Shown here: positions 43,979 through 56,711 of the stretch, one piece after another
How the letters are laid out: each line of letters begins with the position of its first letter
Position numbering within the stretch: position 1 is the first letter of the stretch
Origin: Elusimicrobiales bacterium
GTDB lineage: Bacteria; Elusimicrobiota; Elusimicrobia; Elusimicrobiales; UBA9959
Assembly (NCBI GenBank): GCA_041665305.1
Contig: JBAYJD010000008.1
Span: forward strand, 9,209 to 73,208
Direction: 5' to 3'
DNA: 64,000 nt
Notes under the pieces: generated by a model
What the model saw: only the letters and a program-made list of their open reading frames with translations
Told to the model about the DNA's origin: nothing
The model's database searches: none
Position numbers and translations under genes: made by a program

Positions 43979-44281
43979 GTCATTTCCTCCATCGAACCGC
44001 AGTCAGTCGTTTTACCGCGCAAATATTATATACCCACCAGAGTCCTGCGGCCAGGACTTTAGGCCTATTCTATGCAAGGAATTAGACCTAACAAAACGAT
44101 CCTGCGGCTGAAGAAGAAACTGAAAGCGGAGCGCTGCTTTTATCCCTTTATCGAGCCGCTTCCGGTCTTCACCGAGGTTTCGCCGGCGTTTGGTATCCTT
44201 GAAACGAAGATGTCGCCGTCCAAAATCTATCAGGCATTGCGGTAGCGCTTAAGACTTACTAGAATTCATAGCCTCCTAACT

Positions 44282-44300
44282 CTGCCATAAAAATTGCTCC
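44282..44300 (+). promoter_or_regulatory. variant -24/-12 element, copy 1 (upstream of the sigma-54-like gene)
   Basis: CTGCCATAAAAATTGCTCC, i.e. TGCCAT-N5-TTGCT with the same spacing as TGGCAC-N5-TTGCW. Lies 39 nt before the ATG at 44339. Confidence 0.6.
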
Positions 44301-44338
44301 ATTTTCGCATAACGGCTATAATATGCGAGGGTGAGGCT

Positions 44339-45397
44339 ATGAGCAAATTCCATAAATTCGGTTTCAACCATTCCGCAAGAACTAAAGCGGCGGCTATGGG
44401 CGCTATGAAGCTGGCGCAGATGTCCGAAATGTCGGAAGGCGAATTTGAAAGCTTTCTGAAGAAGATCGAAGATAACCGTTTTTTTAAATTGCTTAAAGCA
44501 TCCGGCGCCGTCAGCCTGGCGGAATTCCCGAATGCGCGTTATGCCGCAAAAAAATACGCCGGCTACGGGCTTAAACTGTCCTCCGGAGGTCTGCCGGAAC
44601 TAGCCGACGGCAAAGGCGATCTGGTCGGCCTGATACAGGGTATAGGCCAGGAAAAATTTGAAACCTGCTTCCTGAAAGACGCGGCCATGAGTGACGTAGA
44701 GCGGGCAGAGGAATGCGACATAACCGTCAAAGACGCCGCCCGCCTGCGTGATTTCGTCAACCGCGCGTTTATACAGGCTGAATTTGAAAGCGCGCCCGAA
44801 GCTCCTGTGTCGGAAGTGTTCAGTGTCGTGGCCGGCATAGAGCTTGAAAACGGCAAGCCTCTCCTGGCGTTCTTTCACCGGGAAATCTGGAAAGGCTGTT
44901 ATAAAGTGGACGGGGAAAAACTTTCAGAAGCGTTGAAAGGCCTCCCCGCCTCTGAACAAACCGCCGTGGAAAAGCTTGTAAGGCGTATGGAACTGGCGGA
45001 CAAGCGAAAATCCACGCTTTACCGCGCGCTGGAAATAGTTATGGAGCGGCAAACCGAGTACCTGATAACCGGAGAGCCTGTGCGCAGGGCGCCGTTGCCG
45101 CAGAAAGTTCTGGCAGCGGAACTTGAAGTCCATCCCAGCGTTCTTAACCGGCTTATCTCAAATAAATCCATACAGATGCCTTGGGGCACCGAAGCGCCTA
45201 TGTCGGTGCTGCTGCCCAGCTCTAAAGCCATAAATTTAGAGCGGCTATACGCCATAGCCGTTGAAAATCCTGGTATGAACGACACTGAGTTGCGCGCCGA
45301 GCTTAAAATCCGCCACGGCGTAGAATTATCCCGCCAGTCCATAGTGCAATACCGCAAAGATTTATCATTGTCCAGGAATACTTCCAGCACGCTGTAA
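44339..45397 (+). CDS. short divergent sigma-54 (RpoN)-like factor
   Basis: The C-terminal half aligns by eye with RpoN. Pre-HTH region KRKSTLYRALEIVMERQTEYL. HTH LPQKVLAAELEVHPSVLNRLISNKSIQMPWG (compare MHESTISRVT..KY..TP.G). RpoN-box-like SRQSIVQYRKDL (compare ARRTVAKYR). N-terminus MKLAQMSEMSEGEFESFLKKIEDN resembles region I. About 352 aa against the usual ~450-500. Confidence 0.65.
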   Translation: MSKFHKFGFNHSARTKAAAMGAMKLAQMSEMSEGEFESFLKKIEDNRFFKLLKASGAVSLAEFPNARYAAKKYAGYGLKLSSGGLPELADGKGDLVGLIQGIGQEKFETCFLKDAAMSDVERAEECDITVKDAARLRDFVNRAFIQAEFESAPEAPVSEVFSVVAGIELENGKPLLAFFHREIWKGCYKVDGEKLSEALKGLPASEQTAVEKLVRRMELADKRKSTLYRALEIVMERQTEYLITGEPVRRAPLPQKVLAAELEVHPSVLNRLISNKSIQMPWGTEAPMSVLLPSSKAINLERLYAIAVENPGMNDTELRAELKIRHGVELSRQSIVQYRKDLSLSRNTSSTL

Positions 45398-45412
45398 AAC
45401 CCACTGTTGGGT

Positions 45413-45445
45413 TTCAAAATGAAAGCATTTATCTCAAAATGAGAT
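45413..45445. promoter_or_regulatory. enhancer-like repeat pair upstream of the lanthipeptide operon
   Basis: TCAAAATGA at 45414 and 45434 (20-bp phasing), ~100 bp upstream of the -24/-12 element at 45532. Confidence 0.5.
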
Positions 45446-45531
45446 GATGTTTGCTTCTTTTCTACTCCCCTGCCTCCGCAGATTTCCTGATTTCCCCAAT
45501 AGAAACGCATAAAATCGTCCAGTACATCCAT

Positions 45532-45550
45532 CTGCCATGAAAATTGCTCC
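45532..45550 (+). promoter_or_regulatory. variant -24/-12 element, copy 2
   Basis: CTGCCATGAAAATTGCTCC. Lies 46 nt before the lanA1 ATG. Confidence 0.6.
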
Positions 45551-45595
45551 ATAGAAGGTGTAGGCGGTCAAAACAAGCTAAGGAGAACGAACCAA

Positions 45596-45688
45596 ATGAC
45601 TAAAGTACTTGAACTGCAGAAACTGGAAACCGGATCAGAGGGCGAGACCCGCTTGGGCAGTTGGATCAGCAACAGCTGCGGGCAATAG
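45596..45688 (+). CDS. class III lanthipeptide precursor (30 aa), absent from the ORF track
   Basis: MTKVLELQKLETGSEGETRLGSWISNSCGQ. RBS aaggag. Leader VLELQ motif. Core S-x-x-S-x-x-C. Confidence 0.8.
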   Translation: MTKVLELQKLETGSEGETRLGSWISNSCGQ

Positions 45689-45724
45689 TGAGTGTGCCGA
45701 TATTAAACAATAGGAGAAAATAAA

Positions 45725-45826
45725 ATGAACACGATACTTGAGTTGCAGAAACTGGAAGTAAAGTCGGAAAACGAGACTCGCGGGGGAAGCTGGATCAGCA
45801 ACTGCTGCGGCGGGCAGAACGAATGA
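45725..45826 (+). CDS. class III lanthipeptide precursor (33 aa), absent from the ORF track
   Basis: MNTILELQKLEVKSENETRGGSWISNCCGGQNE. RBS aggag. Leader ILELQ motif. Core SWISNCC. Confidence 0.8.
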   Translation: MNTILELQKLEVKSENETRGGSWISNCCGGQNE

Positions 45827-45838
45827 GCGGTAGGATAA

Positions 45839-45872
45839 CTCCGGAGGTGGGGAGATTCGGCCACCTCCGGAG
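45839..45872 (+). terminator. strong hairpin between precursor genes and lanKC (attenuator or mRNA stabiliser)
   Basis: Perfect 12-bp stem ctccggaggtgg / ccacctccggag with a 10-nt loop. No clear U-tract. Confidence 0.5.
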
Positions 45873-45889
45873 CGGATTGTTAAGTTCGG

Positions 45890-48556
45890 GTGGGTAATGA
45901 TATGAATAGCGCAAACAACTTGAATTACTACCTGTTCGCAGACAAACGGTTCTATGAGCCCATGGATTATTGCGTGGTAAATGAGGGCGATTATTTTGAT
46001 TTCGTCCGAAGCCAGGCTGATGCGGAATGGAAGTTTGTCAGAAGCGGTATCTGGATAAACTGTATATACCTTAAACATACGATGCCTCTTCAGGGCTGGA
46101 AAATACATTTGTCGGCGACTCATTCGGATTCTGAAGGCATTTTCAGCGCGGCGGCAGAGTTTCTTATGGCGAACAAGGTGACTTTTAAGTTCCTGTTAGA
46201 CAAAAAAACATTGGCGATAACCAATTCAAAAGGCTGGTCTCGCGGCGCTTCCGGGAAATTTATGACGGTGTATCCGACGGATCCGGAGCACTGCAAGTGG
46301 CTGCTGGAAAAACTGCATTCACTGACGGCGGATTTTTGCGGCCCGTATATCCTCTCTGATATGCGTTATAAAGACAGCAAAGTCCTGTACTACAGATATG
46401 GCGGATTCAGGCCGAATTTACGGCTTGATGTGAATGGGAAACGTATCCCGGTGCTGGTTTCCCCTGATGGAAAAGAGGAGGCCGATGTGCGGCCGCCGTA
46501 TTACCGTCTCCCCGGATGGGTGGATGAGATATTCCCGAAGAAGAATACAAATGAGTCTGGTGGCGGATTGAATAACGGGAGATATGCAGTTGAGAGATCT
46601 CTGCATTTCTCCAATACAGGCGGGATATATATCGCCTATGACAATATCGGGAAAAAAAGAGTTGTGCTGAAAGAGGCGCGTGCGCATGTCAACGCGTTCG
46701 CGGAAAATGTGGACGCCGCCAGAATGCTTAAGAGGGAGTATGATATCCTGAAAAAAGTCGGGAACTGCGGCATCGCGCCGGAGCCGGTTGAATTATTCAG
46801 GGAATGGGAGCACCTTTTCCTGGCGGAAGAATATCTGGAGGGTTATATCACGCTTCACGCTTTCGCCGCGCAGAACAGTATTCTGCTGGAGGCGCGCCCT
46901 ACCGAAGAGAAGGTTAAATCCTACCTGGAAAAATATATCGCAATTTTCAGAAAACTCGCGGGAATTATTGAGGCCCTTCATTCCCGGAATATCATATTCG
47001 GGGATTTTTCGGTCAATAATGTCCTGGTCAATCCCGCCACGCTGGATATAAAAATTATCGACCTGGAAGGGGCGCTTGTGGAGGGCGAGGAGGAAGCTTA
47101 TAAACTTTTTACACGCGGGTTTGCCGCCGTCGAGCAGGTCAAGGGGGCGGCGCCTACGCGGGAAAGCGATTATTACGCATTCGGCGCGATAATGCTGTAT
47201 ATGCTGACGCATATAAACGGGATTCTGGATTTAAAGCCTGATGCCGGAACTGAAGCATTGCAGATGGTGGGCCGGGATTTTGGCATACCTGTAAAGTTGA
47301 GAAGGATTATAAATACCCTCATGCACTCCGATCCCGCGAAGCGGCGGGGCCCGGGTGTTTTGCGCGATCAGAAGCAGGAAACTGCTTTAAGGAAGACATG
47401 CGCGGTCAGATTGTCCGCAGCTGCTCCCCGGTTGTCCAGGAAGTACATTACTGATACCGTGCGGTCGGCATGCAGCTTTATTGAATCGAGCGCGGACTAC
47501 GCCAGGAAAGACAGGCTCTTTCCCGCAGACCCGGAAATTTTTGAAACGAATCCGCTCAGTCTTGCGCATGGGGCCGTAGGGGTTCTTTATACATTATCAA
47601 AACTCGGACGCAAGCCTGCTCCCGAAATGCTGCAATGGGTGCGCCAGCATGAAATTTCCGGCAAAAATTGTCCGCCCGGCTTATATCCGGGAATGTCCGG
47701 CATAGCCTGGGGACTGCTTGAGCTTGGCGATAAGGCTGGCGCCGAGGCTGTGTTCGGTAAAACATTCAATTCCCCGCTTTTAGCTGTTTCTTCATCGCTG
47801 TATACCGGCCTGGCCGGTTGGGGGATGACCAATCTTAAGTTCTGGCTGGCCACCCGCAAGGAAATTTACCTGGACAATGCCAAAAAGGCGGGGGAAACAT
47901 TGCTTGATTCCGCGCGCAACGATTCTCACGGTGCGCACTGGCCTGATCAGGCCGGCAAAGTGCCTATCGGGCTGGCGCACGGAGCGGGAGGAATAGGTCT
48001 TTTCCTGCTGTATCTTTACGCGGCCACCGGCAATCAAAAATACCGGCAAAAAGCCGTGGAGGCATTGGATCACGACATCGCTTATGCCGATGCGTTCGGA
48101 AACGGTAATATGGCCTGGGCGAAGACAGCCGGAGAGAACGGGGCGCTTTACCCTTACTGGGAATACGGCAGCGCCGGTATCGGAATTGCCTGCCTGCGCT
48201 ATTTCAGCGTGTTAAAGGAACCTAAGTACATGAAACTTGTGGAAAAGATATATGAAAGCTGCGCGACAAAATATGCGATTTTCCCAGGAAGAAATATGGG
48301 CATGGCAGGTCTGGGCGAGTTTCTGCTTGACGCTTATGCCGTGACAAAAGACGTAAAATACCTCAATAGCGCGCACAGTGTCGCAAGCGGATTCAAACGT
48401 TTTGCGATACGAAGCCCAAAAGGCGTCGCGTTCCCCGGCGACGGTCTGGCACGGATAAGTTGTGATTACGCCGCCGGGATGAGCGGGATCATACTGTTCC
48501 TCGACCGGCTGGTGTCAGGCCGGCCTGCGGATTTTATGCTTGATGAATTGCTTTAA
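45890..48556 (+). CDS. class III lanthipeptide synthetase (LanKC: lyase-kinase-cyclase)
   Basis: Central kinase-like VVLKEARAH, FGDFSVNNVLVN, IIDLEGA. C-terminal LanC-like GxxG repeats (SLAHGAVG, GMSGIAWG, GLAGWG, GLAHGAGG). The Zn-ligand positions read WEYGSAG and GRNMGMAG rather than WCxG and CHG, as expected for class III. Start is GTG 45890 or ATG 45902. Confidence 0.85.
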   Translation: MGNDMNSANNLNYYLFADKRFYEPMDYCVVNEGDYFDFVRSQADAEWKFVRSGIWINCIYLKHTMPLQGWKIHLSATHSDSEGIFSAAAEFLMANKVTFKFLLDKKTLAITNSKGWSRGASGKFMTVYPTDPEHCKWLLEKLHSLTADFCGPYILSDMRYKDSKVLYYRYGGFRPNLRLDVNGKRIPVLVSPDGKEEADVRPPYYRLPGWVDEIFPKKNTNESGGGLNNGRYAVERSLHFSNTGGIYIAYDNIGKKRVVLKEARAHVNAFAENVDAARMLKREYDILKKVGNCGIAPEPVELFREWEHLFLAEEYLEGYITLHAFAAQNSILLEARPTEEKVKSYLEKYIAIFRKLAGIIEALHSRNIIFGDFSVNNVLVNPATLDIKIIDLEGALVEGEEEAYKLFTRGFAAVEQVKGAAPTRESDYYAFGAIMLYMLTHINGILDLKPDAGTEALQMVGRDFGIPVKLRRIINTLMHSDPAKRRGPGVLRDQKQETALRKTCAVRLSAAAPRLSRKYITDTVRSACSFIESSADYARKDRLFPADPEIFETNPLSLAHGAVGVLYTLSKLGRKPAPEMLQWVRQHEISGKNCPPGLYPGMSGIAWGLLELGDKAGAEAVFGKTFNSPLLAVSSSLYTGLAGWGMTNLKFWLATRKEIYLDNAKKAGETLLDSARNDSHGAHWPDQAGKVPIGLAHGAGGIGLFLLYLYAATGNQKYRQKAVEALDHDIAYADAFGNGNMAWAKTAGENGALYPYWEYGSAGIGIACLRYFSVLKEPKYMKLVEKIYESCATKYAIFPGRNMGMAGLGEFLLDAYAVTKDVKYLNSAHSVASGFKRFAIRSPKGVAFPGDGLARISCDYAAGMSGIILFLDRLVSGRPADFMLDELL

Positions 48557-48566
48557 GGAGAATCCA

Positions 48567-50117
48567 ATGTTTAAGAATATGCGGCTTATTGTTCGGCCTT
48601 ATACAACCTCGTTTACCCTCGCATTGGCGGGCGTGGTCGCTATGGATGCGGTCATGAGCCTGCTCAATCCGCTTTTATTGAAATACATATTTGATGAGGG
48701 AGTGATAAAAAAGGATTTCAGGCTGTTTATTGTGGTTACTGTCGGGTTTATGATCCTTGCGACCTTATTCCGGTTGTTCTCTTTATGGAACAACCTTTAC
48801 GTGCAGGATCTGAAAAACAGAATACTTAAACGGCTTATAGGAAGCATGCTGGAAAGCTACTATAAAATGCCGTATATACAGGTCATGAAGAATAAAACCG
48901 GCTATTATACCTCAAGGATTTATGACGAGCCGCTGAGCGCCTCATCCACGGCGATAGATCTCGCTTTCGCGGTATGCCCGGCCGCTGTTTCGTTTCTTGT
49001 GGCGTTTGGGGTTGTTGTTTTCTTGTCGATCAAAGCCACGTTTGCGCTGGTGCTTACGGTGCCGTTCCTTATAATGCTCGCAAATAAATACCATTCCGAG
49101 ATCAAGCAGCATTCCCGCGACGAAAAAGAGGGGGAGGGCGAGTTGCGCGGCGTTATAACCGGTTCTGCGGAATCATATCGTACCGTCAACCTGTTCGGCC
49201 TGCATTCCGCGGTGCTGTCAAAAATTAACGAGAAGTTCGAAAAGTACACGACAAGTCTTAATGCCCGTGTCAGAAACAGCGCAAAACATAACACTTATGG
49301 CGCTATTTTCATGTCCTACGGCGAAATGCTGGTTATAATCGTCTGCGGATACGCGATTTTGAAAGGGGAGATGAGTTTCGGGGGATTCATGGCTTTTATG
49401 AACGCATTCTGGCTTGCCGTCGGCAATATGAGAACGCTTGTGCAGAAAATACCTGAATTCTCACGGAACTCAATGGCGTTGCATCGGTTGGCGGAGTTCG
49501 GCATGCCAGCTTCAGAAGCGGCTGGTACCGGCGGTGGAACCGGGATCGGCGCAATTACACTTGAAAACGTGGGGTTCAGCTATGGTGATAAGCAAGTATT
49601 TTCAAACCTGAGTTTCAGCGCGGGCAAAGGCGAAAAATTGCTGCTAAGCGGCAAGAACGGCTCCGGAAAATCCACGGTGGCGAATATGCTCTCCGGATTC
49701 CTCGCGCCGGATAATGGGACCGCGCGGATTCTGGGCGTTGAAAAGACCAGCGCCTGCGTCTCCCCGCATCACTTCGCGCCTGGCACATTACGCGACAACC
49801 TGAAATTCGATAGCCATACGGACGAACAGCGCCGATACCTGAATGGCGTGCTGGCGGACTTCAAGCTGACGGAAAGTCTTGATAAGAGCCCTGATGCGCT
49901 GTCCGCCGGGCAGAAGAAAAAGGCCGAGATCGCTATGGGGTTGATGAAAGACGCTGAATTGTTTCTGTTCGACGAACCTCTCGCCAACGTGGACGTGGAG
50001 AGCAAGCCGATAATAATGGAGCATATCTTTAACCGGACCAAAGATAAAATCCTGGTAGTTGTAATGCATGGGGATGATGAATTCCGTGGGCAGTTTACCA
50101 GGATGGTGAGTTTATGA
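48567..50117 (+). CDS. ABC transporter, fused permease/ATPase (peptide exporter)
   Basis: Six N-terminal TM helices. Walker A GKNGSGKST, signature LSAGQKKK, Walker B LFLFDEP. RBS aaggag. Confidence 0.85.
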   Translation: MFKNMRLIVRPYTTSFTLALAGVVAMDAVMSLLNPLLLKYIFDEGVIKKDFRLFIVVTVGFMILATLFRLFSLWNNLYVQDLKNRILKRLIGSMLESYYKMPYIQVMKNKTGYYTSRIYDEPLSASSTAIDLAFAVCPAAVSFLVAFGVVVFLSIKATFALVLTVPFLIMLANKYHSEIKQHSRDEKEGEGELRGVITGSAESYRTVNLFGLHSAVLSKINEKFEKYTTSLNARVRNSAKHNTYGAIFMSYGEMLVIIVCGYAILKGEMSFGGFMAFMNAFWLAVGNMRTLVQKIPEFSRNSMALHRLAEFGMPASEAAGTGGGTGIGAITLENVGFSYGDKQVFSNLSFSAGKGEKLLLSGKNGSGKSTVANMLSGFLAPDNGTARILGVEKTSACVSPHHFAPGTLRDNLKFDSHTDEQRRYLNGVLADFKLTESLDKSPDALSAGQKKKAEIAMGLMKDAELFLFDEPLANVDVESKPIIMEHIFNRTKDKILVVVMHGDDEFRGQFTRMVSL

Positions 50118-50126
50118 TGCGGTTTT

Positions 50127-50205
50127 CTCATTTTGAGAAAAGAGATCCCATAAGTTTTCATTGATGGGGTTTGTCAAAATGAGAGTAAGTATCTTAAAAT
50201 GAAAC
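50127..50205. promoter_or_regulatory. enhancer-like repeat array upstream of the second precursor operon
   Basis: Palindrome TCTCATTTTGAGA (50127-50139), TTTCATTGA (50157), TCAAAATGA (50174), TTAAAATGA (50194). The last two are 20 bp apart. The array ends ~87 bp before the promoter. Confidence 0.55.
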
Positions 50206-50280
50206 ATTGTTGTCTGGCTTTTAAATCCTTTGCATCCCGGACTGTTGAATTTTCCCAATGAAGGCAATTAAATTTGATAA

Positions 50281-50299
50281 CTGCCATAAAAATTGCTCC
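50281..50299 (+). promoter_or_regulatory. variant -24/-12 element, copy 3
   Basis: CTGCCATAAAAATTGCTCC. Lies 43 nt before the ATG at 50342. Confidence 0.6.
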
Positions 50300-50341
50300 G
50301 TAGTGGGTGTAAGTGCAGAAAACCACTAAAGGAGAACTTAA

Positions 50342-50509
50342 ATGAACGCAATGCAGATGAACCTTAACAATACGGACGAAAATAACTTCACTTCCGGGTT
50401 CAACCGTGCGCCTGAGTTGGAGGATGTGTTTATGTCTGGTTTCAACCGCGCGCCAGAGCTGGAAGAGAGTTTTACTTCCGGTTTCAATCGCGCTCCCGAA
50501 CTGGCCTAA
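50342..50509 (+). CDS. repeat-containing RiPP precursor (55 aa), absent from the ORF track
   Basis: MNAMQMNLNNTDENNF-TSGFNRAPELEDVF-MSGFNRAPELEESF-TSGFNRAPELA. RBS aaaggag. Three 14-codon units with SGFNRAPEL invariant while 8 of its 9 codons differ synonymously between units. Confidence 0.8.
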   Translation: MNAMQMNLNNTDENNFTSGFNRAPELEDVFMSGFNRAPELEESFTSGFNRAPELA

Positions 50510-50521
50510 TCTGGTTATGAT

Positions 50522-50553
50522 CCGGGCCGGGGACAGTAAAGGTCCCGGCCCGG
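50522..50553 (+). terminator. GC-rich hairpin between precursor and radical SAM gene
   Basis: ccgggccgg(g)gac / gtcccggcccgg, a 12-bp stem with one bulge. No U-tract. Confidence 0.5.
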
Positions 50554-50566
50554 TTCCGGAGCTTAT

Positions 50567-51703
50567 ATGACAAAACCATTTTTCTCTTATTCCACTCCAC
50601 GAATAAACAGCCTTGTATTCAAGCTGGTGGACTATTGCAATCAAGGTTGCACTTATTGCTACCGTGAAAACGACAAAGAGCGTCCAGTGCGCATAATGTC
50701 AGATGAACTGATAGAAACTACTATCGTGAAATATATAGATTTTCTTAAGTCCAAAGGAAACGCCCGCAGCGTAGTATATCTGATCTGGCATGGCGGGGAG
50801 CCATTGCTGGCAGGAATCAGTAAGTTCAGGACGATAATGGAAATACAGGCGCAGCTTGCGGCCAGGTATGAGGTCGGTTTTGTGAATTCCGTGCAAACCA
50901 ATGGGGTCTATATTGATGAGGAATGGGCAAAGTTCTTCAACGAAAACAGGTTCCTGGTCGGGGTGAGCCTGGACGGCCCTAAGCAGATTCATGATATCTA
51001 CAGAAAAAACAAAGGCGGAGTTTCCACCTTCGCGGAGACGATGCGCGGGATCAAATTGCTGCAAGCGCACAAAATAAAAACTAATCTTATCGGTGTTGTA
51101 ACCAATGAGAGCGCTCCGCACGCCGATATGATGTATGAGTTTTTCAGGGATTTTGGCGTGCAGGACATAGACCTCATCCCTTGTTTTGATTATAACGATC
51201 CGCTTACCTTGTCGCCGGAGCTGTACCGCGCTTTTATGGTTACGATTTTTAAGCGGTGGCGTTCGGACGGATTTGCGCCGCTGAGAATAAGGTTCCTTTC
51301 CGATGTTTTGAAAAAGATCTCGGTGCTGCGTTCCGGCGGTTGCGCTACTATAGGCTGCGAGCTTATGGGCGGCTGCGGGCAGAACTGGTCCATAGGCGTG
51401 GAAGGGGAAGTATATCCGTGCGAGTGCCTCACCCCGATAAAGCGCATGGAGCTGGGAAATATTATGGAATCTTCTTTTGAAGGGCTCATGTCCTGCGGCG
51501 CTTTCACTAACGTGAAATCGGAGAACAATGATATCGCGCAAGATTGCCGCGACTGCGACGTGCTGGCGGTATGCCGGGCAGGCTGCCTCAACAGGCGTCT
51601 TAAGGATTATAAACTTGACGGGAAAAGGGACCCTTACTGCCTTGCCCGCCGTGACGTGATCAAACTTGCCCTGGAGGATGCGTATGCAATCCCGGCTAAA
51701 TAA
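50567..51703 (+). CDS. radical SAM/SPASM-domain peptide maturase
   Basis: CNQGCTYC (CxxxCxxC), WHGGEPLL. C-terminal Cys clusters GGCATIGCELMGGCGQ...YPCEC and CRDCDVLAVCRAGC typical of SPASM auxiliary clusters. Confidence 0.85.
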   Translation: MTKPFFSYSTPRINSLVFKLVDYCNQGCTYCYRENDKERPVRIMSDELIETTIVKYIDFLKSKGNARSVVYLIWHGGEPLLAGISKFRTIMEIQAQLAARYEVGFVNSVQTNGVYIDEEWAKFFNENRFLVGVSLDGPKQIHDIYRKNKGGVSTFAETMRGIKLLQAHKIKTNLIGVVTNESAPHADMMYEFFRDFGVQDIDLIPCFDYNDPLTLSPELYRAFMVTIFKRWRSDGFAPLRIRFLSDVLKKISVLRSGGCATIGCELMGGCGQNWSIGVEGEVYPCECLTPIKRMELGNIMESSFEGLMSCGAFTNVKSENNDIAQDCRDCDVLAVCRAGCLNRRLKDYKLDGKRDPYCLARRDVIKLALEDAYAIPAK

Positions 51704-52877
51704 AAACGCCTGGTTATTGTTGTCAGCCGTAGCCATTTCATCCGTAGGGGATTGGCTCAATATCCTTGCCCTGATTACTGTGTTTAGCAAGGCGTATGGG
51801 GCGGCAAGCGTGGCATTCCTGATGGCGATGCGGGCTGTTCCCGGCGTCCTGCTGGGGCCGTGGGTTGCCAATCACATAGATCGCTTTCAGAAAACACGCG
51901 TACTCATTTTTTTAAGCGTCGCTCAGGCAGCCCTGGCGTTAACATTGGGCGTTCTCTCTGACCGTTGGGCGCTTCTCGGCGCGGCGGCGGCGCTTTCCAC
52001 GCTTAATTTGTTCTCCGCCCCTTTGATCAAGGCTCTCCTCCCCACGGTATGCAACTCCGCATCGCTTAGCCGCGTGAATTCGTATTTCGCATCTATACAG
52101 TCAAGTTCCTATGTTCTGATACCGCTTCTTAGCGGGGTGCTGATATCAATCTTTGGCCCGGCGGCATGTTTTAATATAGATGCGGCGACATTTGTCGTCT
52201 TTGGCGTAATGATCGCAGCTGTGCATGTTTCTGATGCGGGGCGTGTCGGCGTTCAGGGGGGGGCGGTAGAGTCCGGGAGTCTCTTCAGGGATCTGCTAAA
52301 TACGCCTGATCTAAAGCGGACATTGTTTGCTTTTGCAGTGGCGGGATTTTCACTGGGGACGATCTACTCGGTGGAGATTTCTTTTTTCGCCAAATACCTG
52401 AATGTAGATCCTCGCGGTTACGGAAGCTTTGTGGCGATCGCCGGCGCGGGTGTGTTGATGGGATCCCTGCTCTGCGGGCGGTTTACGGCTTCGGCAACGC
52501 TTGAGCGGGTGTTTGTAGCGGGGCTTGCCTTATTCGGGACAATGACGGTGCTCTTTTCTTTTAACCGCAGTTTGGTTGTGGCGATCGGGTTGATTATGCT
52601 GTCAGGATTCGGAGAGGGCCTGTTTTCCGTTTCAGGCACCATCCTCGTCCAATTACAATCGCGCGCGGACCGGTTGGCCGGAAATTTTACACTGCTTGGC
52701 GTTTTGTCCAAGAGCTTCAGTCTTTTTGCGATGCTTGTAGCCGCAATGTTTATGGATTACATGCAGCCGGCAGGATTGTTGCTTGTGGCGGGGCTGGTTG
52801 CATTGGGTGTAGCTGCGGTATGGGGCGTAACAAAAGCTCAGGTCAGCAATGTTGCTGCGCCAAAATGCGCCGAATGA
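51684..52877 (+). CDS. MFS transporter (putative peptide exporter)
   Basis: 12 predicted TM helices. N-terminus LLLSAVAISSVGDWLNILAL typical of the MFS_3/EntS-like group. Overlaps the rSAM 3' end. RBS ggagg. Confidence 0.75.
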   Translation: MQSRLNKNAWLLLSAVAISSVGDWLNILALITVFSKAYGAASVAFLMAMRAVPGVLLGPWVANHIDRFQKTRVLIFLSVAQAALALTLGVLSDRWALLGAAAALSTLNLFSAPLIKALLPTVCNSASLSRVNSYFASIQSSSYVLIPLLSGVLISIFGPAACFNIDAATFVVFGVMIAAVHVSDAGRVGVQGGAVESGSLFRDLLNTPDLKRTLFAFAVAGFSLGTIYSVEISFFAKYLNVDPRGYGSFVAIAGAGVLMGSLLCGRFTASATLERVFVAGLALFGTMTVLFSFNRSLVVAIGLIMLSGFGEGLFSVSGTILVQLQSRADRLAGNFTLLGVLSKSFSLFAMLVAAMFMDYMQPAGLLLVAGLVALGVAAVWGVTKAQVSNVAAPKCAE

Positions 52878-52904
52878 ATGCGTTTTGGTGAAAAAGGGCT
52901 ATCG

Positions 52905-52983
52905 GCTCATTTTGAGATAGTAGTTTTGTCTAATCTTCATTGAAAGGATTTTCAAAATGAAAATGTTTATATCAGAATGATAG
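52905..52983. promoter_or_regulatory. enhancer-like repeat array upstream of the third precursor operon
   Basis: GCTCATTTTGAGA (52905), CTTCATTGA (52935), TCAAAATGA (52952), TCAGAATGA (52972). Same order and near-identical spacing as the array at 50127-50205. Confidence 0.55.
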
Positions 52984-53069
52984 GTTTTGTTTGTTCTTAA
53001 ATCCCTGAAAATATCGTCAGGCAGTCATTTCTCCAATGGGGGCGTATGAAATAGGTTGGTTGTCCGCCC

Positions 53070-53088
53070 CTGCCATAAAAATTGCTCC
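53070..53088 (+). promoter_or_regulatory. variant -24/-12 element, copy 4
   Basis: CTGCCATAAAAATTGCTCC. Lies 40 nt before the ATG at 53128. Confidence 0.6.
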
Positions 53089-53127
53089 GTAGGAGGCGTA
53101 AGCAGACATAATATACGGAGGATACAA

Positions 53128-53304
53128 ATGAAACGGATAACGATCAAAATAGCAATAGCGGGGATATCGGCTTTGTTTATAATGGCAGTTTTACTGAAGC
53201 CGCAGCACTTGACTGGCGGCGAGGCCAGCAAAAAGCAGACCGTAGTTCACTATACCAGCGTTGGAGTGTTTCCCAATTCGCCGCTGTTCTATGCGGAGAA
53301 CTAA
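53128..53304 (+). CDS. small peptide (58 aa) with hydrophobic N-terminus, candidate precursor or secreted peptide
   Basis: MKRITIKIAIAGISALFIMAVLLKPQHLTGGEASKKQTVVHYTSVGVFPNSPLFYAEN. RBS acggagg. The longer track ORF from 53056 would begin inside the promoter element. Confidence 0.6.
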   Translation: MKRITIKIAIAGISALFIMAVLLKPQHLTGGEASKKQTVVHYTSVGVFPNSPLFYAEN

Positions 53305-53442
53305 GCAAAGACCCACGGTGGATATAGGTCCAAAGGCCCTTACAAACTTATGAGTCACAGACTACACTATTGTATGATTCTTGACAGCTCGGGGGATTGG
53401 CCTCGGAATATCTGCGACCGGACCTTGATCATGTGTATCCAG

Positions 53443-53487
53443 GGAAAGCAGAATCGAATTTGCTTTTCCTCTTTTAATTGAAAAGCA
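53443..53487 (+). promoter_or_regulatory. two mutually exclusive hairpins (terminator/antiterminator-like)
   Basis: Hairpin 1 is ggaaagca / tgcttttcc (53443-53469), followed by tctttt. Hairpin 2 is tgctttt / aaaagca (53461-53487). Both use the same tgctttt segment. Confidence 0.4.
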
Positions 53488-53529
53488 GTTTCTGAAATGG
53501 CAGAATACAGCAGATAAGGAGAATGCGAT

Positions 53530-53730
53530 ATGACGAACAAAGATAAAGTGATTGTATCGTTCCTGGTGTCCATCGGGATATTTTCTTCCGCCCAAGCGGT
53601 TCGCTATGTTAAGACTCTTGAAATTAGTGAGAAGAACTCCATGATATCCGTGGCCAAACTATCTAATTCCGGCATAGTTCTTTGTGAAGATTCTACCAGT
53701 CGTTCCGGTTTAGATAATCATAAAGGATAA
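53530..53730 (+). CDS. small protein (66 aa) with signal-peptide-like N-terminus, translationally coupled to the radical SAM gene
   Basis: MTNKDKVIVSFLVSIGIFSSAQA... RBS aaggag. Its TAA overlaps the ATG of the next gene (TAATG). Confidence 0.55.
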   Translation: MTNKDKVIVSFLVSIGIFSSAQAVRYVKTLEISEKNSMISVAKLSNSGIVLCEDSTSRSGLDNHKG

Positions 53731-54629
53731 TGGATGGGCACGCTTTGGGGCAGACCGTCGATATTCGTAAGCTAGGAATAGTTGTCGGTACCGCATGCAA
53801 TTTTAATTGCAGCCATTGCTTGATCAAGAAGGAAGACAGGCGTGAACGACTGTCTCTGAAAGAGGTTCGGCTATTGTGCGATACGGTGGCCAGATATCGT
53901 CCGAAGTCGATTTTGTTCACCGGAGGGGAACCGACCTTTTGGATCAAGGAAATAAACGAAATTATTTCCTCCCACCCTTGCCCTGAAAACCTTAAAATCA
54001 CTTTGACCACTAATGGCCATTTCGCAGGGTCGGTCTCTTTGGCGAAGAAGGTGCTCTCCTCGTTTACCAGACTTGATTATGTGCAATTGTCGTATGATGT
54101 TTTCCATAAAATCTTCCTGTCGTTTTCAAAAGCTAAAAATCTTCATTCAGCGTGTACGGAGTTGCGGGTCGGTTTCAGCGCGATTCTAACGATGTCGTCT
54201 CCGTTGGACCTGCTTCTCGTTAAACAGTTGCGAAGTTTCGGGCGGTTCAAGATAGGGGTGCAAAAGGTCGCTAGTATTGGAGAGGCGAAGAGAAACGGCA
54301 TTCGGTTCATCTTCCCATGCTTTGACGAGAAAGTACTCTCTAAATATTGTCCCAACAGGAACAGTCTCGGGTATATTTGCGGACGCGGATTCTCGATCTG
54401 TTGTGCGGAACTGGCCTTTAATAATTCTATGCCCGGGGTGTTTCACTCAACGCTGGGTGAACATTTGGCCAGTCCTTTATACGGATTGATGCGGAAACAC
54501 AATTTTGCGGAACTGATGAAAATATTGCGGGTACCTAAAAAGTCCCTGCTGCCGGATCATTCCTCGGAGTGTGTGCTGTGCGACCATATTTTTAAAAATG
54601 CCAGGAGGAAAGTGCGGTTGACGCCGTAA
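53730..54629 (+). CDS. radical SAM protein with C-terminal Cys-rich (twitch/SPASM-like) region
   Basis: CNFNCSHC (CxxxCxxC), FTGGEPTF. C-terminal CPNRNSLGYICGRGFSICC and CVLC. Confidence 0.8.
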   Translation: MDGHALGQTVDIRKLGIVVGTACNFNCSHCLIKKEDRRERLSLKEVRLLCDTVARYRPKSILFTGGEPTFWIKEINEIISSHPCPENLKITLTTNGHFAGSVSLAKKVLSSFTRLDYVQLSYDVFHKIFLSFSKAKNLHSACTELRVGFSAILTMSSPLDLLLVKQLRSFGRFKIGVQKVASIGEAKRNGIRFIFPCFDEKVLSKYCPNRNSLGYICGRGFSICCAELAFNNSMPGVFHSTLGEHLASPLYGLMRKHNFAELMKILRVPKKSLLPDHSSECVLCDHIFKNARRKVRLTP

Positions 54630-54636
54630 ATCGTGT

Positions 54637-55332
54637 ATGAAATCAAACCCCCGTCTTGTTCAGAAGGAAAAAGGAAAAATAACCTATCAAATGCCGGATT
54701 TTACCCGGCTTAATACTTCGGCGATAGATAAGCTTGCCTGGCCGAAGGAAATCCCGGTCTTGTGGCTGAAATACTACGAAAACCTCGACGGCTGCTACGA
54801 GGCGTTGGATAAAAGGATATCCCGCAAATATATCGTGCGGGTAATATACTCCGCCGATAAGAAAGATATTCATTTGAAGGGGAGAAAGGAATCTGCCTGC
54901 GCGATAAAAGCCAGGGAATCGCTTACAACGGCGGAATTATTGGCACTATATCTTGAAACACATGCTAAATCCTTTATCGCGCCGTGGGCCGGACAACTTG
55001 ATAGTAAATATATAGACGAGGTTTCCTCGTTCATTAAAGAAGATCTGCCGATCTCAAAGTCGTTGAGCTTCTTTAAGGATAAATCCCCAGTGGGATTGGT
55101 GCTCCTGACGGAGTTAGGCAGCGGAGCTGGGCTTATTTCATGGATATGGTTCGCGCCGTCTTTAAGCATTGCTGAAAGACGGAAAGCGCACAATCTCTTT
55201 GCCGCCTGGCTGAGGAACGGGAAATATCCGCAAATTAAAAGTGTCGTTCATTCTTTCAACCTGCGCTCTAACAGATTCTTTATAAAAATGGGATTCCATA
55301 CTCAATGCATTGCTATCACCAGACGAAGCTGA
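54637..55332 (+). CDS. GNAT-family acetyltransferase-like protein (tentative)
   Basis: C-terminal pattern GLVLLTEL...ISWIWFAP...RRKAHNLFAAWL...NLRSNRFFIKMGF resembles GNAT motifs A/B. The N-terminal half is unassigned. Confidence 0.5.
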   Translation: MKSNPRLVQKEKGKITYQMPDFTRLNTSAIDKLAWPKEIPVLWLKYYENLDGCYEALDKRISRKYIVRVIYSADKKDIHLKGRKESACAIKARESLTTAELLALYLETHAKSFIAPWAGQLDSKYIDEVSSFIKEDLPISKSLSFFKDKSPVGLVLLTELGSGAGLISWIWFAPSLSIAERRKAHNLFAAWLRNGKYPQIKSVVHSFNLRSNRFFIKMGFHTQCIAITRRS

Positions 55333-56711
55333 TCTTTCTGCTTCTGGCCGCTTGCGGCGTTCTCTGCGGTTGCCGGAAGGCGGAACAGCGGACGGATACA
55401 TGGACAGTGTTGCTCAGTGACCTTCCCGTACGCCTGTTTGTCGCTGACGCCGGGCTTAATGGGACTTTTTACCTTTTAAAACAGACGCATGAGCCGCTTT
55501 TTAGGCAGGATGACGGGGAAATTTTTTCTTCTCGGCTTTTGGAGAAGTGGAGCAGGGATATCCGGTCTTCTGAATATCTTTTCTGTCCCGACACCTCTTT
55601 GCGTTTTGACGCAGATAACACTTTTTCAATGGCATTCTTTTATAAATATATACGGAAAACCGCTAAGGCGTTCGACCAGGGGGCGGAGGTTGAAAAACAT
55701 GGTGAATGCGTTAGGATAAAATTGGGAAGTCACTCGAATTTCCTGGCTTACCTGTCTCTTTTCGAAAACGCTCCTACTTTGAAAAGGACGGAAAAGATAG
55801 AGGTCGGACTCGGCGCTTTTTCCGTTGAAACATTGTCCGCCGAAAAGGTCGTGCTTAAAAGAAAGCAGAGAGTTTCCAATGGCTATAACGCGATAGTGTT
55901 CCACCAGTATAAGGGCGGCGGTGACCCAAATTTACAGAATAGGCAGATAAGTGATTTCAATAATATCCCATCATTCGAGATACCGGAATGGGTAAAGAAA
56001 GATTATCGGCATTTTGATAGTCCTATACTCCGGTCGATAAGCCTTATAATAAATTACCCCGATAAGGCGGTCCGGAAAGCGGTCTATAACTGTCTTAACT
56101 ATGATTCCCTTCGGCGCGCCTATGTGCCGCGGCGAAAAAACTTTTATGATATATGCAATATACTTCCCGTTGGGGTTCCCGGTGCCGAAGCCGGGCCTCC
56201 GAGGCAGGAATGCTATGGTATAGCGAGAATAAACCGTCATTTTGAATTGACATTCCTGAACCTTGCCTATAATAATGATAAAACGCTGAAGGAAGTGTTA
56301 TCGGCTTTTCATAAAAGAACGGGGATAAAGATCGTCGTCAGGACATATCCTGATAACCAGATCGATGCGGCGCTTCTTCAATCCCCACGCCGGTATAATC
56401 TGGCGATAGTGGTTATGGATGCTGTTCGTCCTAATCATGAAGCGTTCTTTGATTATTTAATCAAGAAAAACGGATACTTTGATACCGATAATCCCGCACT
56501 AACACACTTGTATGAAAAAATGTTGAAAGAACCGGATGAGGAAAAGAAAAATAGTTTAGCGAAAGTCATAGCAGAAAAGCTGGATTCCGAAGCGCTGGTT
56601 TTGCCTCTGTATCAGAATGTGGCGACTTTCTATTATCCGAGAAACATAAAAAGTATTATTCTCGGCAGAGGTTTTATCGAATATCCAGAGGTTGCGGAGT
56701 TCAGATGGTAA
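55305..56711 (+). CDS. lipoprotein, solute-binding protein family 5-like (peptide/oligomer binding)
   Basis: Lipobox-like LLAACGVLCGC. Size and LLKQTHEPLF / periplasmic-binding fold pattern. Overlaps the kinase gene start by 7 nt. Confidence 0.5.
   Translation: MHCYHQTKLIFLLLAACGVLCGCRKAEQRTDTWTVLLSDLPVRLFVADAGLNGTFYLLKQTHEPLFRQDDGEIFSSRLLEKWSRDIRSSEYLFCPDTSLRFDADNTFSMAFFYKYIRKTAKAFDQGAEVEKHGECVRIKLGSHSNFLAYLSLFENAPTLKRTEKIEVGLGAFSVETLSAEKVVLKRKQRVSNGYNAIVFHQYKGGGDPNLQNRQISDFNNIPSFEIPEWVKKDYRHFDSPILRSISLIINYPDKAVRKAVYNCLNYDSLRRAYVPRRKNFYDICNILPVGVPGAEAGPPRQECYGIARINRHFELTFLNLAYNNDKTLKEVLSAFHKRTGIKIVVRTYPDNQIDAALLQSPRRYNLAIVVMDAVRPNHEAFFDYLIKKNGYFDTDNPALTHLYEKMLKEPDEEKKNSLAKVIAEKLDSEALVLPLYQNVATFYYPRNIKSIILGRGFIEYPEVAEFRW

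What the first reader, a model, noticed from the sequence alone, without database searches (positions are those of the whole stretch)
50342..51703. Triple-repeat precursor (SGFNRAPEL x3) paired with a radical SAM/SPASM maturase
The 55-aa ORF contains three 14-residue units, F-(T/M)-SGFNRAPEL-(E/A)-x-x. The nonamer is invariant at the protein level although 8 of its 9 codons differ synonymously among units (ggg/ggt/ggt, cgt/cgc/cgc, cct/cca/ccc, ttg/ctg/ctg and so on). That is direct evidence of purifying selection on the peptide rather than recent DNA duplication. The adjacent enzyme has CxxxCxxC plus two C-terminal Cys clusters (SPASM), and an MFS exporter overlaps its 3' end. A repeated aromatic-x-basic triad (F-N-R) fits the substrate pattern of three-residue cyclophane-forming rSAM/SPASM enzymes (triceptide-like). 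Thioether chemistry is impossible because there is no Cys, and other C-C or C-O crosslinks remain open. I do not recognise SGFNRAPEL as a described core.
Basis: partly seen in the sequence, partly recalled or inferred. Interest (0 to 1): 0.8.

Follow-up and report, generated by a model that had tools for sequence, protein, structure and literature searches.

The report
Unnamed Phe-x-Arg-Ala repeat peptide cassette
A 55-residue peptide with three identical SGFNRAPEL units sits beside a radical SAM enzyme and an exporter, and the same trio recurs in distant bacteria with an invariant Phe-x-Arg-Ala core, so it is a real and apparently unnamed modified-peptide family whose chemistry (probably a Phe-to-Arg ring) is still untested.

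Summary
ORF 50342..50509 encodes 3x SGFNRAPEL. Across 12 copies of the nonamer (this window plus three relatives) at least 15 substitutions are all synonymous.

The pairing is also real. In about 16 distinct loci whose radical SAM/SPASM enzyme is 34-88% identical to this one, a small adjacent ORF carries 1-4 copies of F-x-R-A-(P/S/C); the most distant partner has F-V-R-G-P. An exporter (MFS or ABC) follows the enzyme in at least 11 of these loci. Hosts include Clostridium, Oscillospiraceae, and Bdellovibrionales and Limnocylindrales MAGs.

The enzyme has no recognition (RRE) domain and a full SPASM domain. It fails every curated NCBIfam cut-off: anSME 251 of 349, DynA 220 of 450, and all named cyclophane synthases. 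Its model matches both anSME (TM 0.85) and the triceptide synthase ChlB (TM 0.83).

Best reading: each F-x-R is closed into a three-residue cyclophane (Phe ring to an Arg side-chain carbon) and the product is exported. The chemistry is inferred, not shown.

No name for the peptide or enzyme was found in Pfam, NCBIfam, source annotations or the searchable literature. The non-open triceptide catalogue could not be checked.

The neighbouring LanKC has its own two precursors. The cassette lies in an island whose precursor genes share a sigma-54-like promoter.

The parts
50281..50299 (+). Promoter-like motif CTGCCATAAAAATTGCTCC with sigma-54 -24/-12 spacing but GC instead of GG at -24, about 60 nt upstream of the precursor ATG
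   Evidence: The motif occurs four times in the window, all on the + strand and all in the island; 0.03 are expected by chance. Relatives have TGGCAT-N5-(T/A)TG(C/A) at the same place upstream of their precursor genes. Function as a promoter is inferred.
50328..50334 (+). Ribosome-binding site AAAGGAG, 7 nt before the ATG
   Evidence: Read directly from the sequence.
50342..50509 (+). Precursor peptide gene (55 aa): a 15-aa N-terminal stretch (MNAMQMNLNNTDENN) followed by three 14-residue units
   Evidence: Orthologues with the same 3x SGFNRAPEL are in L081, L090 and L112.
50387..50428 (+). Repeat unit 1, FTSGFNRAPELEDV (F-N-R at 50399..50407)
50429..50470 (+). Repeat unit 2, FMSGFNRAPELEES
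50471..50506 (+). Repeat unit 3, FTSGFNRAPELA, followed by the stop codon
50522..50553 (+). G+C-rich stem-loop (10 bp) between the precursor stop and the rSAM start, with no T tract; a possible attenuator or mRNA-stability element
   Evidence: Fold energy -31.6 kcal/mol, z = -2.35 against shuffles. It was not called as an intrinsic terminator. The role is inferred.
50567..51703 (+). Radical SAM/SPASM peptide maturase (378 aa) with no N-terminal RRE domain; CxxxCxxC at residues 24-31
51684..52877 (+). MFS exporter. The ORF is open from TTG 51666; ATG 51684 lies 7 nt after GGAGG. It overlaps the end of the rSAM gene.
   Evidence: Pfam MFS_1 and TIGR00900. An MFS gene follows the enzyme directly in L081, L083, L084, L088, L089 and the P0004 contig, and after a second rSAM in L114. 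ABC exporters take that place in L002-L004.

Best explanation
This is a three-gene RiPP cassette: a multi-core precursor, a radical SAM/SPASM maturase and an exporter. It belongs to a rare, unnamed family whose cores share F-x-R-A-(P/S/C). The enzyme has no RRE domain and binds each short unit directly. It abstracts a hydrogen from the Arg side chain, most likely at C-beta as in triceptide, darobactin and dynobactin enzymes. The resulting carbon radical adds to the Phe ring two residues upstream, and the auxiliary clusters take the electron. The result is a three-residue Phe-x-Arg cyclophane, a loss of 2 Da per unit and of 6 Da for this peptide. The MFS pump exports the product, either whole or after cleavage into three SGFNRAPEL-containing pieces. 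Expression probably runs from a sigma-54-type promoter shared with the other precursor genes of the island. Shown here: the gene trio, its conservation, the invariant F/R/A, selection on the peptide, and the enzyme's fold and cluster ligands. Inferred: the crosslink, its position, proteolysis, export and regulation.
For: 1. Co-occurrence. Enzymes 34-88% identical to this one have an adjacent small ORF with 1-4 F-x-R-A units in L001/L088, L002, L003, L004, L081, L083, L084, L085, L087, L089, L090, L112, L114 and L115; L113 has F-V-R-G-P. F, R and A are invariant in 23 aligned units while x varies. In the window's six-frame translation the motif occurs only 13 times outside the precursor, in about 128,000 residues.
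2. Selection. At least 15 substitutions in 12 nonamer copies are all synonymous.
3. Copy number. It differs between near-identical precursors (P0128 has 4 units, P0129 has 3; L085 has 3, P0136 has 2), as expected of independent core units.
4. Exporter. An MFS or ABC exporter follows the enzyme in at least 11 loci.
5. Enzyme. It has Radical_SAM plus SPASM domains and invariant C24/C28/C31 plus eight C-terminal Cys. CxxxCxxC starts at residue 24, so there is no RRE. The AF2 model (pLDDT 91.8) matches anSMEcpe at TM 0.84-0.85 and the triceptide synthase ChlB at TM 0.82-0.83. Profile scores to DynA, GrrM/OscB, YhhB, AmcB, FxsB and XyeB are all significant but sub-threshold.
6. Precedent. Aromatic-x-Arg motifs are known substrates: YhhB acts on HNR, ChlB on YDR, and Phe motifs give paracyclophanes (PMC11499958). 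WprB makes a Trp-C5 to Arg-C-gamma link on three repeated WPR motifs, each modified independently (PMC11851443).
7. D202. It is invariant in 36 of 36 family members, is Gln in anSMEcpe and in 10 of 14 anSME-like outgroup proteins, and aligns with D196 of ChlB. An Asp at a similarly numbered position (HtkB D214, HaaB H204) governs acceptance of a basic X3 residue (PMC11499958).
Against: No experiment or structure shows any modification. The enzyme scores slightly higher against anSME than against any crosslinking family, and it fails every curated cyclophane-synthase cut-off. D202 is also present in many unclassified neighbours outside the family. The invariant Ala after Arg has no role in the triceptide model. 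No protease is conserved in the cassette. A loss of 2 Da would not distinguish a crosslink from a dehydrogenation.
Confidence: 0.6

Rival explanations
1. The cassette is the same, but the chemistry differs. The enzyme acts on the conserved F-x-R-A without making a Phe-to-Arg C-beta ring. Options are an anSME-like two-electron oxidation or dehydrogenation of Arg or another residue, a link at Arg C-gamma or C-delta, a four-residue Phe-to-Ala ring, or epimerisation.
For: The best profile and PDB matches are to anSME, an oxidase rather than a crosslinker. The acidic residue next to an auxiliary-cluster Cys (anSME D277, as I recall the numbering, in the motif PCD) is kept as E286 in the family's CECL motif. 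Ala after Arg is invariant and unexplained by a three-residue ring. Arg C-gamma and C-delta links are known (WprB and RrrB; PMC11851443).
Against: All characterised peptide-crosslinking relatives of this clade act on i/i+2 aromatic-x-X motifs. The invariance of both F and R at exactly that spacing fits a bond between them. The Ser/Cys position of the sulfatase motif (four residues before Arg) is not conserved in the family (units). Family members fail the anSME cut-off while true anSMEs pass it.
Confidence: 0.3
2. The repeat peptide is a substrate of the upstream class III lanthionine synthetase LanKC (Ser dehydration), either instead of or in addition to the rSAM. The whole block would then be one hybrid cluster.
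For: LanKC (45890..48556, 747 bits against a cut-off of 575) and an ABC transporter lie immediately upstream on the same strand. Each unit contains Ser and Thr. The promoter motif is shared with the LanA genes.
Against: LanKC has two cognate precursors of its own (45596..45688 and 45725..45826) that pass the class III lanthipeptide model NF038154. The repeat peptide matches no lanthipeptide model and has no Cys. None of the other loci examined has a confirmed LanKC next to the cassette. L081 has an 859-aa protein 4.5 kb downstream for which only kinase-type Pfam families (Pkinase, APH) are on record. Ser is not conserved across the family's units.
Confidence: 0.05
3. The small ORF is not a real gene, and the rSAM is an orphan sulfatase-type maturase acting on a protein encoded elsewhere.
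For: The short ORF has no database family. anSME is the top profile hit.
Against: The pattern of synonymous-only change, the ribosome-binding site and the recurrence of F-x-R-A ORFs next to homologues in several phyla are incompatible with a chance ORF. The anSME cut-off is not met.
Confidence: 0.02

Closest known systems
Triceptides and their three-residue cyclophane-forming rSAM/SPASM enzymes (XyeB, GrrM/OscB, FxsB, YhhB on HNR, ChlB on YDR, HtkB on HTK)
   Same: A short precursor with one or several aromatic-x-X3 motifs sits next to an RRE-less rSAM/SPASM enzyme. Arg is a known X3 residue and Phe a known aromatic partner (PMC11499958). The model matches ChlB at TM 0.82-0.83, and D202 aligns with ChlB D196.
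   Different: The enzyme is below the curated cut-off of every named family: GrrM/OscB 162 of 310, YhhB 150 of 445, AmcB 147 of 425, FxsB 126 of 370, XyeB 109 of 450. It is only about 23% identical to ChlB. The core has an extra invariant Ala and a conserved P/S/C after Arg. The crosslink itself is unverified.
WprA/WprB (three WPR motifs, Trp-C5 to Arg-C-gamma; PMC11851443)
   Same: The precursor has three repeated aromatic-x-Arg motifs, each modified independently by one rSAM.
   Different: WprB belongs to the StrB/WgkB-related group, needs a separate RRE protein (WprC) and has only one auxiliary cluster (twitch domain). The enzyme here has a full SPASM domain and no RRE partner.
DynA and DarE (dynobactin and darobactin maturases)
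   Same: These are anSME-like rSAM/SPASM enzymes that make i/i+2 aromatic crosslinks. DynA is the second-best NCBIfam hit over its full length (220 bits), and family members score nearly as well against DynA as against anSME.
   Different: The cut-offs of 450 and 650 bits are not met. There are no Trp/His/Tyr motifs. Known examples have a single core rather than repeats.
Anaerobic sulfatase-maturating enzyme (anSME, PDB 4K36-4K39)
   Same: This is the best sequence and structure match: 176 bits, TM 0.85, 28-29% identity. The length and the SPASM Cys pattern are the same, and neither has an RRE.
   Different: The score of 250.7 is below the 349.45 cut-off, whereas true anSMEs among the outgroup score 388-399. 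There is no C/S-x-P/A-x-R target position conserved in the peptides. Family-specific residues differ: D202 in place of Gln, plus E265, N273, C287 and R343. The enzyme is paired with a small repeat peptide and an exporter rather than with a sulfatase.
TvgA/TvgB (repeating TVGG motif, poly-cyclopropylglycine; PMC9062424)
   Same: It is a multi-core precursor made of short tandem units, each modified by one rSAM, and is proposed to yield several small products.
   Different: The motif, the chemistry (Val gamma-carbons) and the enzyme clade are different.

Membership tests
Triceptide (three-residue cyclophane RiPP) | Precursor core contains aromatic-X2-X3 motif(s) | tested here: met
   F-N-R occurs three times in the window peptide. 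F and R are invariant in 23 units from the relatives.
Triceptide (three-residue cyclophane RiPP) | Adjacent rSAM/SPASM maturase | tested here: met
   Radical_SAM plus SPASM domains and invariant cluster Cys. Adjacency is conserved in about 16 distinct loci.
Triceptide (three-residue cyclophane RiPP) | Maturase belongs to a named 3-CyFE family by curated HMM (XyeB, GrrM/OscB, FxsB, YhhB, AmcB) | tested here: not met
   All are below cut-off: 109 of 450, 162 of 310, 126 of 370, 150 of 445 and 147 of 425. The same holds for five other family members.
Triceptide (three-residue cyclophane RiPP) | Aromatic carbon to X3 C-beta bond (loss of 2 Da per motif, shown by NMR) | not testable with these tools
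   This needs co-expression, MS/MS and NMR.
Anaerobic sulfatase maturase (TIGR03942) | Score at or above the curated cut-off of 349.45 bits | tested here: not met
   The window enzyme scores 250.7 and family members score 229-266, while outgroup P0043 scores 399 and P0054 scores 388.
Anaerobic sulfatase maturase (TIGR03942) | Substrate carries C/S-x-P/A-x-R, with the Cys or Ser as the target | tested here: not met
   The residue four positions before the invariant Arg is S, A, D, G or T across the family and is not conserved. The motif definition is from my own knowledge.
Dynobactin/darobactin maturases (DynA NF041298, DarE NF038005) | Curated cut-offs of 450 and 650 bits, and Trp/His/Tyr-based motifs | tested here: not met
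   Scores are 219.8 and 101.7 bits. The core has no Trp, His or Tyr.
SPASM-domain radical SAM enzyme | CxxxCxxC plus a C-terminal domain with ligands for two auxiliary 4Fe-4S clusters | tested here: met
   PF13186 scores 29.8 against a cut-off of 21.5. C264, C270, C285, C327, C330, C336, C340 and C358 are invariant in 36 sequences. The fold matches anSME.
Sactipeptide/ranthipeptide | Cys in the core to donate sulfur | tested here: not met
   The 55-aa peptide has no Cys. Cys is present in some relatives but is not conserved.
Class III lanthipeptide precursor | Match to the NF038154 or NF038159 model; Ser/Ser/Cys core | tested here: not met
   The repeat peptide has no NCBIfam hit. The two upstream LanA ORFs score 26.4 and 31.9 against a cut-off of 22.

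The most novel reading that the evidence does not exclude
The F-x-R-A family performs a peptide modification not yet described for radical SAM enzymes. Candidates are a Phe-Arg link at a new position, a ring that uses the invariant Ala, or an anSME-style oxidation of Arg. Its three-copy product would be a secreted signal sensed by the island's binding-protein-like gene, histidine kinase and sigma-54-dependent response regulator. That circuit would feed back on the TGCCAT-N5-TTGC promoters that precede each precursor gene, possibly through the island's own sigma-54-like factor.
Probability: 0.15. Interest if true: 0.75.

Novelty: new variant of a known kind. Interest (0 to 1): 0.55.

Why it matters
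The enzymes closest to this one include the makers of darobactin and dynobactin (antibiotics that target BamA) and of the triceptides. New clades in that neighbourhood are a proven source of new ring chemistries and bioactive peptides.

This analysis defines such a clade by sequence:
- It has a very simple, portable cassette of three genes and needs no recognition protein.
- It has a sharp substrate signature (F-x-R-A).
- It has cultured hosts (Clostridium botulinum, C. paraputrificum, and C. diolis for the peptide alone), so the prediction of a 2 Da loss per unit is directly testable.

The analysis also shows that a large set of anSME-like enzymes around this family falls below every curated family threshold. 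Annotating them as 'sulfatase maturase' by similarity would therefore be wrong.

Tried and rejected
No docking evidence could therefore be obtained.
- A 14-residue unit profile was too short for the protein search. The full-length precursor profile found only 9 peptides, all unnamed, probably because short ORFs are rarely called as genes.
- The genome scan with the family alignment used a generic pattern (WHGGEPLxxG). It returned mostly anSME-level relatives, and only L001-L004 belong to the family.
- The metagenome scan added only close relatives (L090, L091).
- Literature: none of six core strings occurs in the library. The triceptide landscape paper (JACS 2022, 144, 11580) is not held, and the supplement of PMC11499958 is not held. 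I could not check whether this clade is already a node in those networks, nor align HtkB or HaaB.
- Taxonomy of the window: GalE has a 100% match only to an unnamed 73.7-kb contig. The next hits are 63% identical and come from mixed phyla (Elusimicrobia, Peregrinibacteria, Methanobacterium), so the organism is unresolved.
- Sulfatase-motif idea: S-G-F-N-R in this peptide resembles S-x-P-x-R, but the Ser position is not conserved in relatives, so I rejected it.
- D246 as an Arg-binding candidate was dropped, because anSME and ChlB have an Asp one residue earlier in the HMMER alignment.
- No conserved protease was found in the cassette. M3 peptidases lie near it only in L083 and L089.
Full report
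**Observation**

The ORF at 50342..50509 (+) encodes MNAMQMNLNNTDENNFTSGFNRAPELEDVFMSGFNRAPELEESFTSGFNRAPELA. It has a good ribosome-binding site, AAAGGAG, 7 nt upstream of the ATG.
- The three SGFNRAPEL nonamers differ at eight of nine codons, always synonymously.
- At the DNA level the array has period 42 and only 75% matches.
- Three relatives (L081, L090, L112; enzymes 81-88% identical) carry the same triple nonamer.
- Over the 12 copies there are 10 variable sites, 9 of them at the third codon position of the + frame. That is at least 15 substitutions, none changing an amino acid.
- Only about 25% of possible single changes are synonymous, so the chance of this pattern is about 8e-10.
- The linkers between units do change (EDV/EES, EER/EEQ, EEA/EET, EDR/EEQ).

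The peptide is therefore a real gene product under strong purifying selection. The overlapping minus-strand ORFs are not the coding frame.

**The neighbouring genes**

ORF 50567..51703 (378 aa) has Pfam Radical_SAM and SPASM domains.
- CxxxCxxC starts at residue 24, so there is no N-terminal recognition (RRE) domain.
- In an alignment of 36 family members, C24, C28 and C31 plus C264, C270, C285, C327, C330, C336, C340 and C358 are invariant. That is enough for two auxiliary clusters.
- The MFS gene overlaps the last ~20 nt of the rSAM gene. Its likely start is ATG 51684, 7 nt after GGAGG.
- A 10-bp G+C stem-loop without a T tract lies between the precursor and the enzyme gene (50522..50553).

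**What the enzyme is**

Against NCBIfam it hits many peptide-modifying rSAM/SPASM families and anSME, but reaches no curated cut-off.

| Family | Score (bits) | Cut-off (bits) |
|---|---|---|
| anSME | 250.7 | 349.45 |
| DynA | 219.8 | 450 |
| GrrM/OscB | 161.6 | 310 |
| YhhB | 149.8 | 445 |
| AmcB | 147.4 | 425 |
| PapB | 130.1 | 340 |
| FxsB | 126.1 | 370 |
| XyeB | 109.4 | 450 |
| DarE | 101.7 | 650 |

- Five other family members behave the same way (anSME 229-266, DynA 208-248). Two outgroup proteins annotated as anSME pass the cut-off (399 and 388).
- In the PDB the best sequence match is anSMEcpe (176 bits), followed by the triceptide synthase ChlB (88 bits).
- An AlphaFold2 model (pLDDT 91.8, pTM 0.90) superposes about equally on both: TM 0.84-0.85 for anSMEcpe and 0.82-0.83 for ChlB. 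The sactipeptide enzyme CteB scores 0.70.

**Family and rarity**

- The word-indexed search found about 39 clusters (90% identity) with 34-88% identity to the enzyme. Scores then drop to proteins that are 30-33% identical and mostly anSME-like.
- NCBI names the Clostridium botulinum, C. paraputrificum and Limnocylindrales members only 'radical SAM protein'.
- An exhaustive profile search of 1.84 billion representatives gave 7 representatives above 400 bits and about a dozen at 327-381. Below that scores fall off continuously; 4,608 proteins have E <= 1e-30.
- A seven-residue family signature (K19, D202, D246, E265, N273, C287, R343) is kept at five or more positions in only about 10 further representatives.
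- Many neighbours keep K19, H75 and D202 but lose the rest. They too fail all curated cut-offs.

The family is small. It sits in a larger unnamed zone between anSME and DynA.

**The decisive evidence: partner peptides**

Next to each family enzyme for which DNA could be read there is a small ORF with the same core.

| Locus | Host or sample | Enzyme identity to window | Units and core |
|---|---|---|---|
| L001/L088 | Bdellovibrionales MAG | 49% | 1x, ...SDENTAQFCRAPELQ |
| L083 | C. botulinum | 50% | 2x FSRASEQ |
| L084 | C. paraputrificum | 47% | 3x FGRACE |
| L085 | metagenome contig | 50% | 3x FARASE |
| L002 | Eubacteriales MAG | 43% | 4x DGFARASQL |
| L003 | Oscillospiraceae MAG | 41% | 1x FARASQT |
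| L004 | Oscillospiraceae MAG | 41% | 3x FDRASK(I/L) |
| L087 | Limnocylindrales | 42% | 1x CFCRAPEPKY |
| L115 | metagenome contig | 43% | 1x CFCRAPEPKY |
| L089 | metagenome contig | 38% | 3x FCRAS(M/V)Q |
| L114 | metagenome contig | 37% | FCRAPVP and FSRAPMK |
| L113 | metagenome contig | 34% | FVRGPKP, in an ORF downstream of the enzyme |

- In 23 aligned units F, R and A are invariant. The residue between F and R is N, A, C, S, G or D.
- A peptide-profile search added C. diolis (2x FCRASEQ). It also found near-identical precursors that differ only in copy number (4 against 3, and 3 against 2). All are annotated 'hypothetical'.
- Downstream of the enzyme lies an MFS exporter in L081, L083, L084, L088, L089 and the P0004 contig, and after a second rSAM in L114. 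L002-L004 have ABC exporters instead.
- Some Cys-containing relatives add a second rSAM/SPASM or a B12-rSAM (L087, L114, L115).

The conserved unit is precursor, maturase, exporter.

**Mechanism**

The two invariant side chains sit at i and i+2. That is the spacing used by every characterised crosslinking relative of this clade.
- Triceptide synthases join an aromatic carbon to C-beta of X3. Examples with Arg at X3 are YhhB on HNR and ChlB on YDR, and Phe motifs give paracyclophanes (PMC11499958).
- Darobactin and dynobactin enzymes share an origin with the triceptide synthases (PMC12912966).
- WprB links Trp-C5 to Arg-C-gamma on three repeated WPR motifs, each independently. RrrB links Arg-C-delta to Tyr (PMC11851443).
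- In HtkB and HaaB one residue (D214 and H204) decides whether a basic X3 is accepted (PMC11499958). Here D202 is invariant in the family, is Gln in anSMEcpe and in most anSME-like outgroup proteins, and aligns with D196 of ChlB, with a one-residue gap adjacent.

I therefore rate a Phe-x-Arg three-residue cyclophane per unit as the most likely product, at about 0.6. The exact Arg carbon is open.

The main rival, at about 0.3, is a different reaction on the same motif. An anSME-like oxidation, a ring involving the invariant Ala, or another Arg carbon cannot be excluded, because the enzyme is at least as close to anSME as to any crosslinker and the Ala is unexplained.

The sulfatase motif itself is not present. 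The position four residues before Arg is not conserved.

**Relation to the upstream LanKC**

LanKC (45890..48556) passes the class III model (747 bits against 575). It is preceded by two small ORFs, MTKVLELQKLETGSEGETRLGSWISNSCGQ and MNTILELQKLEVKSENETRGGSWISNCCGGQNE, which pass the class III lanthipeptide model.

The repeat peptide matches no lanthipeptide model, and no other locus examined has a confirmed LanKC beside the cassette. These are adjacent but separate RiPP systems.

**Regulatory context**

The motif CTGCCAT(A/G)AAAATTGCTCC occurs four times in the window, all on the + strand; 0.03 are expected by chance. The copies lie:
- at 44283, at the start of a 367-aa ORF that matches only the sigma-54 DNA-binding domain;
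- at 45533, before the first LanA gene;
- at 50282, before the repeat-peptide gene;
- at 53071, before a 58-aa ORF.

It has the spacing of a sigma-54 -24/-12 promoter but reads GC where GG is expected. Relatives have TGGCAT-N5-TTGC, -ATGC or -TTGA at the corresponding places.

The island also encodes a sigma-54-dependent response regulator, a histidine kinase, a solute-binding-like protein, a second rSAM and an S8 protease. In L081 that second rSAM block lies directly upstream of the cassette, whereas here it is downstream. Co-regulation is inferred, not shown.

**Novelty**

- Pfam and NCBIfam have no model for the peptide.
- No source names the peptide or the enzyme.
- None of six core strings occurs in the searchable literature.
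- I could not inspect the published triceptide networks (about 3,900 pathways and 5,369 enzymes), so prior cataloguing of the clade as an unnamed node cannot be excluded.

I class the finding as a new variant of a known kind: an rSAM/SPASM RiPP with an aromatic-x-basic repeat core, but with a distinct enzyme clade, a distinct core signature and unverified chemistry.

The source organism is unresolved. GalE's closest named relatives are about 60-63% identical and come from mixed phyla.

Noticed in passing
window 44283..44297, 45533..45547, 50282..50296, 53071..53085 (+): There are four copies of TGCCAT(A/G)AAAATTGC, with extended conservation CTGCCAT.AAAATTGCTCC; 0.03 are expected by chance. 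The spacing is that of a sigma-54 promoter, but -24 reads GC instead of GG. Relatives L081 and L112 have TGGCAT at the equivalent sites.
   Followed up: partly
window 44294..45397 (+): This 367-aa ORF matches only the sigma-54 DNA-binding domain (42 bits; rpoN cut-off 277) and has no detectable activator-interacting or core-binding regions. Its C-terminal box reads SRQSIVQYR where, from memory, canonical RpoN has ARRTVAKYR. It may be an island-specific sigma-54-like factor matching the variant -24 element.
   Followed up: partly
window 45596..45688, 45725..45826, 45890..48556, 48540..50117 (+): A complete class III lanthipeptide cluster lies here: two LanA genes (LELQ/ILELQ-type leaders, SWISNSC and SWISNCC cores; both pass NF038154), LanKC (747 bits) and an ABC transporter.
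   Followed up: partly
window 53530..53730, 53730..54629, 54637..55332, 55305..56711, 56705..58864 (+): This looks like a third RiPP-like block. It holds a conserved 66-aa ORF (homologue in L081 at 4687..4881), a radical SAM without SPASM (weak YydG-like hit, 51 bits against 300), a 231-aa protein with no family, an SBP_bac_5-like protein and a histidine kinase. The same block lies directly upstream of the repeat-peptide cassette in L081.
   Followed up: partly
window 53128..53304 (+): A 58-aa ORF with a hydrophobic N-terminus (MKRITIKIAIAGISALFIMAVLL...) is preceded by the fourth promoter motif. It has no family match.
   Followed up: no
window 59039..60400 (-) and 60730..61941 (+): A sigma-54-dependent response regulator (Response_reg plus Sigma54_activat) and a subtilase S8 protease (weak QhpE and PatA/PatG similarity) lie at the edge of the island. 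They are candidates for the regulator and the processing protease.
   Followed up: no
window ~44000..58000: G+C content is 0.46-0.51 across the RiPP island, against 0.55-0.64 in the region just upstream (roughly 30-44 kb), which suggests acquired DNA. A second low-G+C stretch (0.42-0.49) at about 12-24 kb covers what looks like a polysaccharide locus (tyrosine kinase, GalE, TviB-like and Polysacc_synt_2 genes were identified nearby).
   Followed up: no
P0128 vs P0129; L085 vs P0136: Near-identical precursors differ only in the number of units (4 against 3 DGFARASQL; 3 against 2 FARASE). Units are gained and lost as modules.
   Followed up: partly
L087 5169..6894; L114 4124..5275; L115 4146..5821: Relatives whose cores contain Cys (CFCRAPEPKY, CFCRAPVP) carry a second rSAM/SPASM or a B12-binding protein plus an rSAM with a PqqD domain. 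This suggests extra modifications, possibly thioethers or methylation.
   Followed up: no
P0265-P0400 (one search list): A large set of anSME-like rSAM/SPASM proteins keeps K19, H75 and D202 but falls below every NCBIfam cut-off (anSME 267-337 of 349; DynA 224-288 of 450). This is an unnamed zone between anSME and DynA that similarity-based annotation would mislabel.
   Followed up: partly
L083 2762..4546 (-); L089 8959..9119 (+): M3-family oligoendopeptidase genes lie near the cassette in two unrelated loci. They may be processing enzymes or a coincidence.
   Followed up: no
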